From the human T2T-CHM13v2.0 reference genome, Homo sapiens: a stretch of 64,000 nucleotides of DNA. Positions 1 to 18,038 of the stretch are shown here, piece by piece (within the stretch, counting starts at the first letter, position 1; every line of letters begins with the position of its first letter). The DNA lies in NCBI GenBank assembly GCA_009914755.4, contig CP086569.2:31168001-31232000 (forward strand), written 5' to 3'. Position numbers and translations under genes: made by a program. The notes beneath the pieces are model-generated. The model had not been told where the DNA came from, did not search any database, and worked only from the letters and a program-made list of their open reading frames with translations.

Positions 1-1104
1 TATAATACCTATATTAAATATATATTATATGACTATGTTATTAATTACATGTCACATGTGTTATATATTATTTATTTTACATAGAATATACCGTTTACAT
101 ACAATATATAGTATGTTACCTATAATGTATAATTTATTACATGTAAAATAAGGAATGCAATATATTATGTATAATTTATAATATACAATATGTGGAATGT
201 GATATATATAACATATAATATATGATATATGATATAGAGTATATGATATACAACATACAATATATGATACCTAATATATATGGTATACAATATATATTTT
301 ATGATATGTATTCTATATGTTATATATTCTGTTATATATAACTATTTGAAATTATATATAACTGTATAATATTTTAGGTAAATATGTAGTATAATATATA
401 TAACTTTATAATATATTATATATAACTATATATTATGTTATATATACTTTTATAACATAATTTACATAAAATATCATAATATAATATATATTATATTATT
501 TCATATTACATAATATATCTTACATATCACCCAATATAAGTAACATACATAATATTATAATATAGATTATATTATGTTATATTAAATATCATATATATCA
601 TGTAGCATATATTCTATAATATATATTATACATTATATAATATGTATGTTGTCTATTATGTGATATATATAACTATATATATAATTATATTATTATACAT
701 ATAACTAGATAAACATGTAATTCTACATATTTTCATTTATAATATATGGAATTATATAATCATATATAATTTTTTATAGTCTATAAAAAATTATACCATT
801 ATATAAATTATAATATATAAAAATTATAATATGTACTACAAATATATATATTATATATCATATATGATATAGTACCTTTGTTATATATCATAATACATAT
901 ACATGTGTATTATGTTATCTATAATTATATAATTTCATATATAAGATGTATAATATGTATCATATATTATATACGTTATGTAATATATATAGTATATATA
1001 AGCTGACACAGGATAAATATTATATACTATGACATATAAAATATATGAGGTTATATGTTACATATAAGGCATAGCACATAACATGTAATATATATCATAT
1101 ATAA
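1..1104. repeat. Partial DYZ2-type unit (AT-rich segment only), cut by the window edge
   Basis: It aligns with the AT-rich portion of later units and is identical to 9679-10782 at a constant offset of 9678. Confidence 0.85.
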
Positions 1105-1402
1105 TTTTTTTTTAGACAGAGTCTTGTCCTGTTTCACAGGGTGGAGTACAATGGCGCCATCTTTGCTCACTGCAACATCTGCCTCACGGGTCCAAGCGAT
1201 TGTCCTCCCTCAGCCTCCCAGGTAGCTGGGACTACACCACACTGGGACTACACCAGCTGTCACCATGCCTAGCTAATTTTTTGGATTTTTAGTAGTGACA
1301 GCGTTTCACTGTATTGGCCAGGATGGTCTTGATCTCTTCACCTTGTGATCCCCTTGCCTTGGCCTCCAAATTTGCTGGGAGTACAGGCCTGAGCCAAGAT
1401 CC
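1105..1402 (-). mobile_element. Alu element fixed within satellite unit 1. It is CpG-decayed and lacks the first ~12 nt of the Alu 5' end.
   Basis: The plus strand reads as the reverse complement of Alu: poly-T 1105-1113, then 'agacagagtcttgtcctgt...cctcagcctcccaggtagctgggactaca...ctagctaattttttggatttttagtag...ttggccaggatggtcttgatctc...ctgagccaagatcc'. It contains an internal direct duplication 'gggactacaccacactgggactacaccagctg'. Confidence 0.93.
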
Positions 1403-1975
1403 ATATTTTTTAAATGAAAAAAAATTTCAAAGGTACTCTGCTTGGTACAATAATCAAATGTATAAACTGAGGAATAAAACATAACCAGGAAACCTACTTA
1501 TAACTGCATATGGAAAATACAGAGGATAATTTTTTAAATAACATATTTTGAAAGCCTTAACTAGTAATTTGAAGAGTTGGCATTTGAAAGGCCAGTATGA
1601 ATATACCTTCAAAGCAGCAACACAGGTTCCCCATGAGAAAAAGCAAACTCAGGGAAAATAAAACCACAAAGGTTCAATCTCTTCTGACCTTTGAAAGACA
1701 CAGCACAGACAGTGGTCCTTAGCACGAAGAGCAGGAGACCCCTAATTCCGTCACCATGGCGATAGGGCATAAACATTGCTGGGTGAGGGCACAATCCACA
1801 TTGTGAGGTCCAACTGCTGCCAGGAAGACAGGAGTGCTTTTACATAGACCGAAAGGTCATTGAAGGCTCAGAGTTTTGTTTCAAGAACTGAATCCCAAGC
1901 CAAAACGTTATTAGGCTGCGCTTCTTAAAACAAGTTATGAGATGGGAAAACGGGCACCCACAAACATACGTATAC
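1403..1975. repeat. Representative non-Alu, non-AT 'mixed-composition' segment of the DYZ2-type unit (~570 bp, ~40% GC)
   Basis: It lies between the Alu 5' end and the start of the AT-rich run, and it recurs in every unit. It contains the recurring 61-codon minus-strand ORF (1609-1794). Its origin is not recognisable by eye. Confidence 0.6.
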
Positions 1976-13498: not shown

Positions 13499-15620
13499 AT
13501 ATTTTTTAAATGAAAAAAAATTTCAAAGGTACTCTGCTTGGTACAATAATCAAATGTATAAACTGAGGAATAAAACATAACCTTGAAACCTACTTATAAC
13601 TGCATATGGAAAATACAGAGGATAATTTTTTAAATAACGTATTTTGAAAGCCTTAACTAGTAATTTGAAGAGTTGGCATTTGAAAGGCCAGTATGAATAT
13701 ACCTTCAAAGCAGCAACACAGGTTCCCCATGAGAAAAAGCAAACTCAGGGAAAATAAAACCACAAAGGTTCAATCTCTTCTGACCTTTGAAAGACACAGC
13801 ACAGACAGTGGTCCTTAGGACGAAGAGCAGGAGACCCCTAATTCCGTCACCATGGCGATAGGGCATAAACATTGCTGGGTGAGGGCACAATCCACATTGT
13901 GAGGTCCAACTGCTGCCAGGAAGACAGGAGTGCTTTTACATAGACCGAAAGGTCATTGAAGGCTCAGAGTTTTGTTTCAAGAACTGAATCCCAAGCCCAC
14001 ACGTTATTAGGCTGCGCTTCTTCAAACAAGTTATGAGATGGGAAAAAGGGCACCCACAAACATACGTATACATTATGTATATAATAATATACAGTATCAT
14101 ATATATAATATATATAACCTATGTATAATATTGTTTTACATCCTGCATCTTATGTTATATATATTGTATAAAATATAATAATTGATAATATATAAGTTTT
14201 ATATTTATACAATATGACATATAGTATATATTATAATTTATGACATATATAATATATGTTATATATCATATATAGAATATATTATACAGTTAATATACGT
14301 ATTAAATATAAATTATACATTTTATATATATTATATATAATATATCTGTTATATATAATACGCATTATGCATAATATATATATTATGTCTATGTTATATA
14401 TAGTATAAAACAACATATAACAATATATAATTGTATATATAAAATGCGACATATAATATATATTATATTTTATGACATATGTAATATATATTATATATTG
14501 TATATAATACGTTGTATGTATAATACCTATAATAAATATATATTATATGACTATGTTATTAATTACATGTCACATATGTTATATATTATATATTTTACAT
14601 AGAATATACCGGTTACATACAATATATACTATGTTACCTATAATGTATAATTTATTACATGTAAAAAAAAGAAAGCAATATATTATGTATAATTTATAAT
14701 ATACAATATGTGGAATGTGATATATATAACATATAATATATGATATATGATATACAGTATATGATATATAACATACAATATATGATACCTAATATATATG
14801 GTATACAATATATATTTTATGATATGTATTCTATATGTTTTATATTCTGTTATATGTAACTATTTGAAATTATATATAACTGTATAATATTTTAGGTAAA
14901 TATGTAATATAATATATATAACTATATAATATATTATATATAACTATATATTATGTTATATATACTTTTATAACATAATTTACATAAAATATCATAATAT
15001 AATATATATTATATTATTTCATATTACATAATATATATTACATATCACCCAATATAAGTATCATACATAATATTATAATATAGATTATATTATGTTATAT
15101 TAAATATCATATATATCATGTATCATATATTCTATAATATATATTATACATTATATAATATGTATGTTGTCTGTTATGTGATATATATAACTATATATAA
15201 TTATATTATTATACATATAACTAGATAACCATGTAATTCTACATATTTTCATTTATAATATATAGAATTATATAATCATATATAATTATTTATATTCTAT
15301 AAAAAATTATATCATTATATAAATTATAATATATAAAAATTATAATATGTACTACAAATATATATATTATATATCATATATGATATAGTACCTTTGTTAT
15401 ATATCATAATACATATAAATGTGTATTATGTTATCTATAATTATATAATTTCATATATAAGTTGAATAATATGTATTATATATTATATATGTTATGTAAT
15501 ATATATAGTATATATAAGATGACACAGGATAAATATTATATACTATGACATATAAAATATATGAGGTTATATGTTTCATATAAGGCATAGCACATAACAT
15601 GTAATATATATCATATATAA
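13201..15620. repeat. DYZ2-type unit 6 (2420 bp), a near-exact copy of unit 2
   Basis: Offset 9678 from unit 2. Confidence 0.85.
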
Positions 15621-15918
15621 TTTTTTTTTAGACAGAGTCTTGTCCTGTTGCACAGGGTGGGGTACAATGGCGCCATCTTTGCTCACTGCAACATCTGCCT
15701 CACGGGTCCAAGCGATTGTCCTCCCTCAGCCTCCCAGGTAGCTGGGACTACACCACACTGGGACTACACCAGCTGCCACCATGCCTAGCTAATTTTTTGG
15801 ATTTTTAGTAGTGACAGCGTTTCACTGTATTGGCCAGGATGGTCTTGATCTCTTCACCTTGTGATCCCCTTGCCTTGGCCTCCAAATTTGCTGGGATTAC
15901 AGGCCTGAGCCAAGATCC
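15621..15918 (-). mobile_element. Alu copy embedded in unit 7
   Basis: Same sequence and orientation as 1105-1402. Confidence 0.93.
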
Positions 15919-18038
15919 ATATTTTTTAAATGAAAAAAAATTTCAAAGGTACTCTGCTTGGTACAATAATCAAATGTATAAACTGAGGAATAAAACATAA
16001 CCTTGAAACCTACTTATAACTGCATATGGAAAATACAGAGGATAATTTTTTAAATAACGTATTTTGAAAGCCTTAACTAGTAATTTGAAGAGTTGGCATT
16101 TGAAAGGCCAGTATGAATATACCTTCAAAGCAGCAACACAGGTTCCCCATGAGAAAAAGCAAACTCAGGGAAAATAAAACCACAAAGGTTCAATCTCTTC
16201 TGACCTTTGAAAGACACAGCACAGACAGTGGTCCTTAGGACGAAGAGCAGGAGACCCCTAATTCCGTCACCATGGCGATAGGGCATAAACATTGCTGGGT
16301 GAGGGCACAATCCACATTGTGAGGTCCAACTGCTGCCAGGAAGACAGGAGTGCTTTTACATAGACCGAAAGGTCATTGAAGGCTCAGAGTTTTGTTTCAA
16401 GAACTGAATCCCAAGCCCACACGTTATTAGGCTGCGCTTCTTCAAACAAGTTATGAGATGGGAAAAAGGGCACCCACAAACATACGTATACATTATGTAT
16501 ATAATAATATACAGTATCATATATATAATATATATAACCTATGTATAATATTGTTTTACATCCTGCATCTTATGTTATATATATTGTATAAAATATGATA
16601 ATTGATAATATATAAGTTTTATATTTATACAATATGACATATAGTATATATTATAATTTATGACATATATAATATATGTTATATATCATATATAGAATAT
16701 ATTATACGGTTAATATACGTATTAAATATAAATTATACATTATATATATTATATATAATATATCTGTTATATATAATACGCATTATGCATAATATATATA
16801 TTATGTCTATGTTATATATAGTATAAAACAACATATAACAATATATAATTGTATATATAAAATGCGACATATAATATATATTATATTTTATGACATATGT
16901 AATATATATTATATATTGTATATAATACGTTGTATGTATAATACCTATATTAAATATATATTATATGACTATGTTATTAATTACATGTCACATATGTTAT
17001 ATATTATATATTTTACATAGAATATACCGGTTACATACAATATATACTATGTTACCTATAATGTATAATTTATTACATGTAAAAAAAAGAAAGCAATATA
17101 TTATGTATAATTTATAATATACAATATGTGGAATGTGATATATATAACATATAATATATGATATATGATATACAGTATATGATATATAACATACAATATA
17201 TGATACCTAATATATATGGTATACAATATATATTTTATGATATGTATTCTATATGTTTTATATTCTGTTATATGTAACTATTTGAAATTATACATAACTG
17301 TATAATATTTTAGGTAAATATGTAATATAATATATATAACTATATAATATATTATATATAACTATATATTATGTTATATATACTTTTATAACATAATTTA
17401 CATAAAATATCATAATATAATATATATTATATTATTTCATATTACATAATATATATTACATATCACCCAATATAAGTAACATACATAATATTATAATATA
17501 GATTATATTATGTTATATTAAATATCATATATATCATGTATCATATATTCTATAATATATATTATACATTATATAATATGTATGTTGTCTGTTATGTGAT
17601 ATATATAACTATATATAATTATATTATTATACATATAACTAGATAACCATGTAATTCTACATATTTTCATTTATAATATATAGAATTATATAATCATATA
17701 TAATTATTTATATTCTATAAAAAATTATATCATTATATAAATTATAATATATAAAAATTATAATATGTACTACAAATATATATATTATATATCATATATG
17801 ATATAGAACCTTTGTTATATATCATAATACATATAAATGTGTATTATGTTATCTATAATTATATAATTTCATATATAAGTTGTATAATATGTATTATATA
17901 TTATATATGTTATGTAATATATATAGTATATATAAGATGACACAGGATAAATATTATATACTATCACATATAAAATATATGAGGTTATATGTTTCATATA
18001 AGGCATAGCACATAACATGTAATATATATCATATATAA
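15621..18038. repeat. DYZ2-type unit 7 (2418 bp), a near-exact copy of unit 3
   Basis: Offset 9678 from unit 3. Confidence 0.85.

What the first reader, a model, noticed from the sequence alone, without database searches (positions are those of the whole stretch)
1..16980. Near-exact ~7.3-kb (three-unit) segmental duplication inside the DYZ2-type array at constant offset 9678 bp
Units 1-3 (1 to ~7300) and units 5-7 (9679 to ~16980) share private variants that neighbouring units lack. Examples: 'ccgtttacat' at 91 and 9769, 'gaccatgtta' at ~2451 and ~12131, 'cctataataaata' at ~4851 and ~14527. Landmark ORF starts match exactly: 1609 vs 11287, 4027 vs 13705, 6447 vs 16125 (all +9678). Unit 4 versus unit 8 does not follow the pattern (offset 9676, different variants). 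This points to a recent multi-unit unequal exchange or duplication, or a 4-unit higher-order periodicity that is breaking down.
Basis: seen in the sequence. Interest (0 to 1): 0.5.

Follow-up and report, generated by a model that had tools for sequence, protein, structure and literature searches.

The report
Recent four-unit duplication in Y satellite
The near-exact repeat is real: a block of the human Y-chromosome satellite DYZ2 was recently copied four repeat units downstream, which is the ordinary, already documented way such satellite arrays grow and shrink.

Summary
Window 1-6919 matches 9679-16597 at a constant offset of 9678 bp, with 10 substitutions and no indel (99.86%). In-phase three-unit blocks at other offsets reach at most 99.06%.

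The window reads as human Yq12 heterochromatin. It holds about 12 full or partial DYZ2/HSat1B units of about 2.42 kb (1-30732), then a DYZ1/HSat3 array (30733-64000).

The offset is exactly four units. The match starts at the first base of the window, so its left end was not seen. It ends at one lineage switch between 6382 and 7101, not at about 7300.

- Nine of the 10 differences are private to one copy (4 in one, 5 in the other).
- Unit 4 has 27 private variants and no twin in the window.

The simplest reading is one in-register unequal exchange that duplicated 9678 bp in tandem. Its first roughly 2.6-3.3 kb would lie upstream of the window, so "three-unit" is probably a truncation.

With the published Yq12 mutation rate, the event is about 1,900 generations old (900-3,400).

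The periodicity does not continue to the right. Whether it continues upstream could not be tested.

Unequal exchange, small local expansions and de novo gains or losses of whole DYZ2 units are already published. The finding is real but ordinary.

The parts
1..6919 (+). Copy 1 of the near-exact tract (units U1, U2 and most of U3). The left end is cut by the window start. The true right end lies somewhere in 6382-7101.
   Evidence: 10 substitutions and 0 indels against +9678. Private variants of copy 1 are at 748, 796, 3214 and 5620.
9679..16597 (+). Copy 2 of the near-exact tract (units U5, U6 and most of U7). The true right end lies in 16060-16779.
   Evidence: Private variants of copy 2 are at 10658, 11445, 15061, 15465 and 16597.
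6382..7101 (+). Interval holding the exchange breakpoint (unit phase about 1544-2263), where the end of the duplicated segment would join its restart.
   Evidence: The last site pairing U3+U7 against U8 is 6381. From 7102 every U3/U7 mismatch is a polymorphism shared with other units: the U7 tail is of U8/U2/U6 type and the U3 tail is of U4/U9/U10 type.
7102..9678 (+). U3 tail plus unit U4. It has no near-identical partner in the window. It is inferred to be the copy of the 2.6 kb lying just upstream of the window.
   Evidence: U4 is at most 98.1% identical to every unit and has 27 private variants against 1-5 for twinned units. The best partners of its 600-bp chunks differ at 6-18 sites.
16935..19352 (+). 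Unit U8, a close relative of U3/U7 (99.5-99.6%) but not of U4. It is inferred to be the original right-hand neighbour of the duplicated segment and the product of an earlier single-unit duplication.
1..24186 (+). Well-homogenised part of the DYZ2/HSat1B array: ten units of 2416-2420 bp (U1-U10), 97.6-100% identical to one another.
   Evidence: Anchor spacing and identity matrix. GC 24.5%, 1 CpG per 138 bp, ACATACG once per unit, antisense Alu fragment at 1105-1396 in U1.
24187..30732 (+). Degenerate edge of the DYZ2 array. It holds a unit lacking the Alu and GC-richer part (24187-25474), U11 (25475-27863, 92-93%), U12 (27864-30275, about 87-90%) and a truncated last unit (30276-30732, 83%).
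30733..64000 (+). DYZ1/HSat3-type array, GGAAT-rich on the + strand, with unit lengths of about 3.53-3.56 kb. It is context only and not part of the duplication.
   Evidence: GC 38.8%, 1 CpG per 35 bp, GGAAT making up 33% of bases. GC skew about +0.55. Offsets of 3528-3563. The junction was read.

Best explanation
The window is human Yq12 heterochromatin. Within its DYZ2 (HSat1B) array, two copies of the array, most likely sister chromatids, paired four units out of register. A homologous exchange in unit phase about 1544-2263 produced a tandem duplication of 9678 bp, that is four units.

The window shows only the last 6.4-7.1 kb of the first copy (1 to about 7000), then the whole second copy (about 7000 to about 16700). 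Unit 4 is therefore the second copy's version of the unit that lies just upstream of the window.

Since the event the two copies have gained about nine private point substitutions and one change that looks like a small conversion from another unit. They have gained no indels. This puts the event roughly 1,900 generations ago at the measured Yq12 rate.

What is shown:
- the constant offset
- the identity and its right-hand boundary
- the pattern of private against shared variants
- the lack of any partner for unit 4 in the window

What is inferred:
- the upstream extension
- sister-chromatid exchange as the mechanism
- the date
For: Identity of the sequence:
- Units are 2416-2420 bp.
- Each unit has an AT-rich part (86% AT), an antisense Alu fragment 77% identical to AluY, and a GC-richer part.
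- ACATACG occurs once per unit. GC is 24.5% with 1 CpG per 138 bp. The adjoining GGAAT array has GC 38.8% and 1 CpG per 35 bp.
- These values match those published for DYZ2 and DYZ1.
- Independent single-unit DYZ2 contigs, contaminants in bacterial assemblies, are 98.0-98.8% identical to the window units.

The duplication:
- 99.86% identity with no indel over 6919 bp at offset 9678, which is four units.
- 36 of 39 variants shared by exactly two units fall in the three offset-4 pairs.
- 9 of 10 differences are singletons, split 4:5 between the copies.
- There is one sharp switch to shared polymorphisms from 7102.
- Identity is already 100% at window base 1, so the left end is not seen.
- U4 has 27 private variants and U9 has 22. 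The U1/U5 ancestor had 24. Twinned units have 1-5.

The process is documented:
- Unequal exchange, iterative tandem duplications and small-scale expansions within HSat1B sub-arrays in T2T-Y (10.1101/2022.12.01.518724).
- De novo structural variants of 2,416-4,839 bp removing or adding whole DYZ2 units, about one per Y transmission, and a Yq12 SNV rate of 3.86e-7 per bp per generation (PMC12240836).
- The date was computed.
Against: - The upstream 2.6-3.3 kb needed to show that the tract is as long as the period could not be obtained. Exact-protein look-ups of two window ORFs found nothing, and no collection held this locus.
- U3-U7 (5 differences) is only slightly closer than U3-U8 (8) or U7-U8 (9). 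The right boundary is therefore known only to about 720 bp.
- One site (6325/16003) groups U7 with U8/U2/U6 rather than with U3.
- The date depends wholly on the rate chosen. It is about 1,900 generations with the Yq12 rate but about 60,000 with a euchromatic rate.
- Sister-chromatid exchange cannot be told apart from replication-based mechanisms using sequence alone.
Confidence: 0.72

Rival explanations
1. This is a local four-unit higher-order repeat. The 9678-bp block has been copied three or more times, the further copies lie upstream, and the window catches only its right-hand end.
For: The period is exactly four units and the left end is unseen. T2T-Y shows iterative tandem duplications in Yq12 at many scales.
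Against: The period does not continue to the right. U9 is 97.7% to U1/U5 and U4-U8 is 97.9%. No 9.7-kb periodicity of DYZ2 is mentioned in the papers read. A single event explains everything seen in the window.
Confidence: 0.15
2. This is a non-tandem copy of about three units, made by a long gene-conversion or patch-repair tract. One 6.4-7.1 kb stretch overwrote another lying four units away, with the left boundary by coincidence at or just outside the window start. Unit 4 would be an untouched original unit.
For: Interlocus gene conversion is active in Yq12: 29% of de novo SNVs match non-orthologous sites. Unit 4 has no twin in the window.
Against: The tract would have to be at least 6.4 kb, in register and free of indels. 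This is judged far longer than typical conversion tracts, from general knowledge and not tested here. The model also needs a left boundary that happens to fall at the arbitrary window edge, since identity is 100% over the first 747 bases. Unit 4's lack of a twin is explained equally well by the tandem model.
Confidence: 0.08
3. This is an assembly artefact: a false duplication or a wrongly resolved repeat in a satellite that is hard to assemble.
For: Yq12 is among the hardest regions to assemble. The provenance and read support of the window are unknown.
Against: The two copies differ at 10 sites spread over the tract, 6 transitions and 4 transversions, split between the copies. The blocks are flanked by distinct units, U4 and U8. 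A false duplication would be expected to give identical copies. The Y is hemizygous, so haplotype duplication does not apply (inference).
Confidence: 0.05

Closest known systems
Small-scale expansions and deletions within HSat1B/DYZ2 sub-arrays of T2T-Y (Rhie et al. 2023, Extended Data Fig. 8d; 10.1101/2022.12.01.518724)
   Same: Same satellite and same signature: long exact-match diagonals at unit-multiple offsets inside a DYZ2 array. The authors attribute them to unequal exchange.
   Different: [quoted passage not shown] This one is a single 9.7-kb (four-unit) event seen at base resolution, with its breakpoint placed within about 720 bp.
De novo DYZ2 structural variants in the CEPH 1463 pedigree (Porubsky et al. 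2025, PMC12240836)
   Same: Gains or losses of whole DYZ2 units in register, 2,416-4,839 bp, about one per Y transmission. The same paper gives the elevated Yq12 SNV rate and the gene-conversion signature used here for dating.
   Different: The pedigree events involve one or two units and were caught as they arose. This event involves four units and is old enough to have gained about 10 substitutions.
Homogenisation of the middle of an array with divergent units at its edges (Hallast et al. 2023, 10.1101/2022.12.01.518658)
   Same: In the window, units far from the DYZ1 border are 98-100% alike. The last about 6.5 kb before the border falls to 83-93%. This is the pattern those authors describe.
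   Different: Only one array edge is visible here.
Alpha-satellite higher-order repeats
   Same: Multi-unit blocks that are more alike between blocks than their units are within a block.
   Different: Only two block copies are seen, the period does not continue to the right, and the unit is a 2.4-kb composite rather than a 171-bp monomer.

Membership tests
DYZ2 / HSat1B satellite of human Yq12 | Tandem unit of about 2.4 kb (published mode 2,413 bp; consensus 2,420 bp) | tested here: met
   Anchor spacings are 2416, 2418 and 2420 bp for ten consecutive units.
DYZ2 / HSat1B satellite of human Yq12 | Composite unit: an extremely AT-rich part (>85% AT), an old AluY fragment about 20% diverged, and a GC-richer part | tested here: met
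   The AT-rich part is 86.1% AT, the Alu fragment 49.7% AT and the GC-richer part 60.6% AT. Window 1105-1396, minus strand, aligns to AluY positions 13-289 at 77.4%. A weak hit to mir-1268, an Alu-derived family by my own knowledge, lies on the same strand.
DYZ2 / HSat1B satellite of human Yq12 | ACATACG at the join between the HSATI part and the AT-rich part; GC about 24%; about 1 CpG per 150 bp | tested here: met
   ACATACG occurs once per unit, at 1964, 4382 and onward. GC is 24.5% with 1 CpG per 138 bp.
DYZ2 / HSat1B satellite of human Yq12 | Array alternates with DYZ1 (HSat3A6; about 3.5-kb units of pentamer-derived repeats; GC about 38%; 1 CpG per 35 bp) | tested here: met
   The junction is at 30732/30733. 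Downstream, GC is 38.8%, there is 1 CpG per 34.7 bp, GGAAT makes up 33% of bases, and unit offsets are 3528-3563.
DYZ2 / HSat1B satellite of human Yq12 | High identity to independent DYZ2 copies | tested here: met
   Single-unit contigs in bacterial genome assemblies are 98.0-98.8% identical to U1-U10. This kind of contamination was reported for HSat1B by Rhie et al.. That these contigs are human is an inference, because their records name bacteria.
Tandem duplication by in-register unequal exchange | Constant offset equal to a whole number of units, with no foreign sequence at the junction | tested here: met
   9678 = 2418+2420+2420+2420. There is no indel over 6919 bp. The array stays in phase across 6382-7101.
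Tandem duplication by in-register unequal exchange | Differences between the copies are mostly private changes arising after the event, spread over both copies | tested here: met
   9 of 10 differences are singletons, 4 in copy 1 and 5 in copy 2. One is shared with other units.
Tandem duplication by in-register unequal exchange | Length of the near-identical tract equals the offset (9678 bp) | not testable with these tools
   The tract is cut by the window start: identity is 100% from base 1. The 6.4-7.1 kb seen is compatible with 9678. The upstream sequence could not be found.
Higher-order repeat (four-unit period) | Three or more successive block copies, with each unit type recurring every four units | tested here: not met
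   To the right the pattern stops. U4-U8 is 97.9% and U1/U5-U9 is 97.7%. Unit 8 belongs with U3/U7. The upstream side is untested.

The most novel reading that the evidence does not exclude
The 9678-bp block could be the visible end of a young four-unit higher-order repeat of DYZ2 that extends upstream for several more copies. That would be a local change of the satellite's effective repeat unit from 2.4 to 9.7 kb, and it could serve as a lineage marker within Yq12.
Probability: 0.15. Interest if true: 0.25.

Novelty: already known. Interest (0 to 1): 0.12.

Why it matters
It matters little beyond bookkeeping. The tract is a clean, base-resolved example of how DYZ2 arrays turn over. It shows an in-register multi-unit duplication on top of earlier single-unit duplications (U2 to U3 to U8). 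The breakpoint is placed within about 720 bp, and the differences that arose afterwards are mostly private, with one that looks like a conversion.

Such blocks could serve as markers for reconstructing Yq12 history across Y haplogroups, and as traps for read mapping and assembly. They do not change the current picture of satellite evolution by unequal exchange.

Tried and rejected
- Whole-window self-BLAST. It either merged everything into long low-identity alignments or returned nothing after filtering. I replaced it with 600-bp chunk searches and exact 200-mer offsets.
- Fetching the upstream flank by exact-protein look-up of two window ORFs: a 40-aa ORF carrying the U1/U5 private variant and the 61-aa landmark ORF. 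Neither is on record.
- Scanning metagenome contigs for the 32-mer with the U1/U5 private T gave 0 hits. The consensus version gave 16 loci, mostly single collapsed units. One locus with four units (L009) gave a background of 21-26 substitutions between neighbouring units. None is this locus.
- Model rejected: a full U1-U4 to U5-U8 duplication followed by loss of the second U4. The U7 tail is not U4-like (8 substitutions and 2 gap columns in about 335 columns). It is U8/U2/U6-like, with 1 substitution.
- Model rejected: U8 as a later insertion that displaced the twin of U4 to position 9. U4-U9 is only 97.6%.
- ORFs as biology. The 61-codon ORFs recur in every unit and are mechanical. They were not pursued as genes.
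- Rfam search of one unit gave only a weak hit to mir-1268, which is Alu-derived by my own knowledge.
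Full report
**What the window is**

Positions 1-30732 are a tandem array with anchor spacings of 2416-2420 bp. Each unit has three parts:
- an AT-rich part (86% AT)
- a GC-richer part

ACATACG occurs once per unit. GC is 24.5% and there is one CpG per 138 bp. At 30732/30733 the array gives way to a GGAAT-rich array. That array has GC 38.8%, one CpG per 35 bp, and unit lengths of 3.53-3.56 kb.

These figures match the published descriptions of DYZ2/HSat1B and DYZ1/HSat3A6 in human Yq12. The published values are a 2,413/2,420-bp unit, ACATACG at the join between the HSATI and AT-rich parts, 24% against 38% GC, 1 CpG per 150 against 1 per 35 bp, and alternating arrays (10.1101/2022.12.01.518658; 10.1101/2022.12.01.518724).

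Single-unit DYZ2 contigs that sit as contaminants in bacterial genome assemblies are 98.0-98.8% identical to the window's units. Rhie et al. reported this kind of contamination.

**Checking the observation**

At offset 9678 the ungapped identity of 1-7300 is 99.81%. Offsets one or two bases away give 23-43%.

The mismatches are at 748, 796, 980, 1767, 3214, 5383, 5620, 5787, 6325 and 6919. From 7102 onward they come about every 40 bp, until an indel breaks the register near 7940. So there are 10 substitutions and no indel in 6919 bp (99.86%).

The ORF landmarks are correct, but they are mechanical ORFs present in every unit.

Comparison with other pairs:

| Measure | Focal pairs | Others |
|---|---|---|
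| Unit identity | U1-U5 99.8%, U2-U6 100.0%, U3-U7 99.6% | U4-U8 97.9% |
| Differences between three-unit blocks | 16 | next best 68; median of 28 pairs 133 |
| Variants shared by exactly two units | 36 (24 + 11 + 1) | 3 in all other pairs |
| Exact 200-mer start positions | 5120 at offset 9678 | 1869 at the next offset |

In an independent DYZ2 contig, neighbouring units differ by 21-26 substitutions.

**Boundaries**

The left end is not seen, because identity is 100% from the first base of the window to base 747.

On the right, the last site that pairs U3 with U7 against U8 is 6381. The U3-U7 mismatch at 6919 is private to U7 and says nothing about the boundary. From 7102 every U3-U7 mismatch is a polymorphism shared with other units. 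The U7 tail goes with U8, U2 and U6. The U3 tail goes with U4, U9 and U10. That is the signature of a switch of lineage, that is an exchange point, between 6382 and 7101.

**What the differences say**

Nine of the ten differences are states found in one unit only. Four are in copy 1 and five in copy 2. This is what independent mutation after a duplication should give.

The tenth (6325/16003) is a state shared with other units. It looks like a small conversion. This fits the report that 29% of de novo Yq12 SNVs match non-orthologous sites (PMC12240836).

Counting private variants per unit is instructive:
- U4 has 27 and U9 has 22.
- The common ancestor of U1 and U5 had 24.
- U1, U2, U3, U5, U7 and U8 have only 1-5.

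Units look 'clean' only because their twin is in the window. U4 looks like an ordinary unit whose twin is not.

**Most likely mechanism**

The offset is exactly four units (2418+2420+2420+2420). A tandem duplication of period P produces a near-identical tract of length P at offset P.

With the right end at 6382-7101 and P = 9678, the tract should begin 2.6-3.3 kb upstream of the window. The stretch 7102-9678 (U3 tail plus U4) would then be the second copy of that unseen sequence. One in-register unequal exchange explains all of the following:
- the constant offset
- the absence of indels
- the single sharp boundary
- the missing left boundary
- the fact that U4 has no partner

The array before the event would have read U0 (=U4), U1, U2, U3 (head of U3 and tail of U7), U8, U9. 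Within it, U3 and U8 differ at 8-9 sites and U2 and U3 at about 15. The four-unit event therefore sits on top of earlier single-unit duplications.

Sister-chromatid exchange is the likely route. Rhie et al. saw such exchanges in Yq12 in about 15% of Strand-seq libraries and attribute Yq12 patterns to unequal exchange. The route is inferred, not shown.

**Date**

Ten differences in 6919 bp give about 1,900 generations (95% interval 900-3,400) at the Yq12 rate of 3.86e-7 per bp per generation. That is about 56,000 years at 30 years per generation. With a euchromatic rate the figure would be some thirty times larger, so the date is only as good as the rate.

**Rivals**

- *A four-unit higher-order repeat.* It is not supported to the right: U9 is not U1-type and U4-U8 is 97.9%. 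It could still extend upstream.
- *A long conversion patch of three units.* This would need a tract of at least 6.4 kb whose left end happens to fall at the window edge.
- *A full U1-U4 duplication followed by loss of the second U4.* Rejected, because the U7 tail is not U4-like.
- *An assembly artefact.* Unlikely, because the copies differ at ten scattered sites and have different neighbours. Reads were not available to check.

**Comparison with what is known**

- Hallast et al. describe arrays that are homogenised in the middle and divergent at the edges. The window shows this pattern, with units falling from 98-100% to 83-93% identity over the last 6.5 kb before DYZ1.
- Porubsky et al. caught de novo gains or losses of one or two whole DYZ2 units, about once per Y transmission.

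The present tract is a four-unit instance of the same process. It is real, cleanly resolved and ordinary.

**What could not be done**

The flank upstream of the window was not obtainable. Exact-protein look-ups found nothing. No collection scan returned this locus. The one decisive test is therefore left as a next step: whether near-identity at offset 9678 extends 2.6-3.3 kb upstream and then stops.

Noticed in passing
window 24187-25474: A DYZ2 unit that lacks the Alu fragment and the GC-richer part. It aligns to unit phase 1 to about 1046 at 88.8% and to phase 1937-2420 at 92.6%. This makes 'unit 10' look 3706 bp long and gives a GC trough of 13%.
   Followed up: partly
window 19353-30732: Units grow steadily more divergent toward the DYZ1 border. 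U9/U10 are about 98%, U11 92-93%, U12 about 87-90%, and the last truncated unit (30276-30732) 83%. This matches the published pattern of homogenised middle and divergent edge.
   Followed up: partly
window 30732/30733 and 30733-32733: The DYZ2-to-DYZ1 junction. The last DYZ2 unit is cut at unit phase about 480 and runs straight into GGAAT-type repeats. The first about 2 kb of DYZ1 is only about 89% identical to other DYZ1 units, against 95-99.7% further in.
   Followed up: partly
window 796 and 3214 (alignment column 798): Adjacent units U1 and U2 each carry a different private base (C and A) at the same homologous position. All other units, including their twins U5 and U6, have T. By rough estimate there is about a 1.5% chance that two of nine singletons fall in the same column. 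It could be a hotspot or a polishing artefact.
   Followed up: no
window 1-715 of units U1, U4, U5, U10 (for example 1-110, 7259-7368, 9679-9788): U1, U4, U5 and partly U10 share 12 variants in the first about 715 columns of the unit that U2, U3 and U6-U9 lack. This suggests two head types interleaved in the array.
   Followed up: no
L001-L005 (for example LZSC01000004.1 Mycobacterium sp., BMRF01000089.1 Actinomadura cremea): Contigs of 0.7-2.5 kb in bacterial genome assemblies are single DYZ2 units, in four of the five cases 97-99% identical to the window. They are presumably contamination with male human DNA, as Rhie et al. reported.
   Followed up: partly
L007, L012, L020 (metagenome contig BNJT01002008.1, 54 kb): DYZ2-like units of 2.29-2.44 kb that differ from one another by about 25% and from the window by 5-20%. 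They are either noisy long-read assembly or a much more diverged HSat1B array.
   Followed up: no
window 30733-64000: The DYZ1 part has no multi-unit near-exact repeat comparable with the DYZ2 one. Its best stretches are single-unit neighbours, for example 50401-51706 at offset 3538, with 99.7% over a 1-kb chunk.
   Followed up: partly
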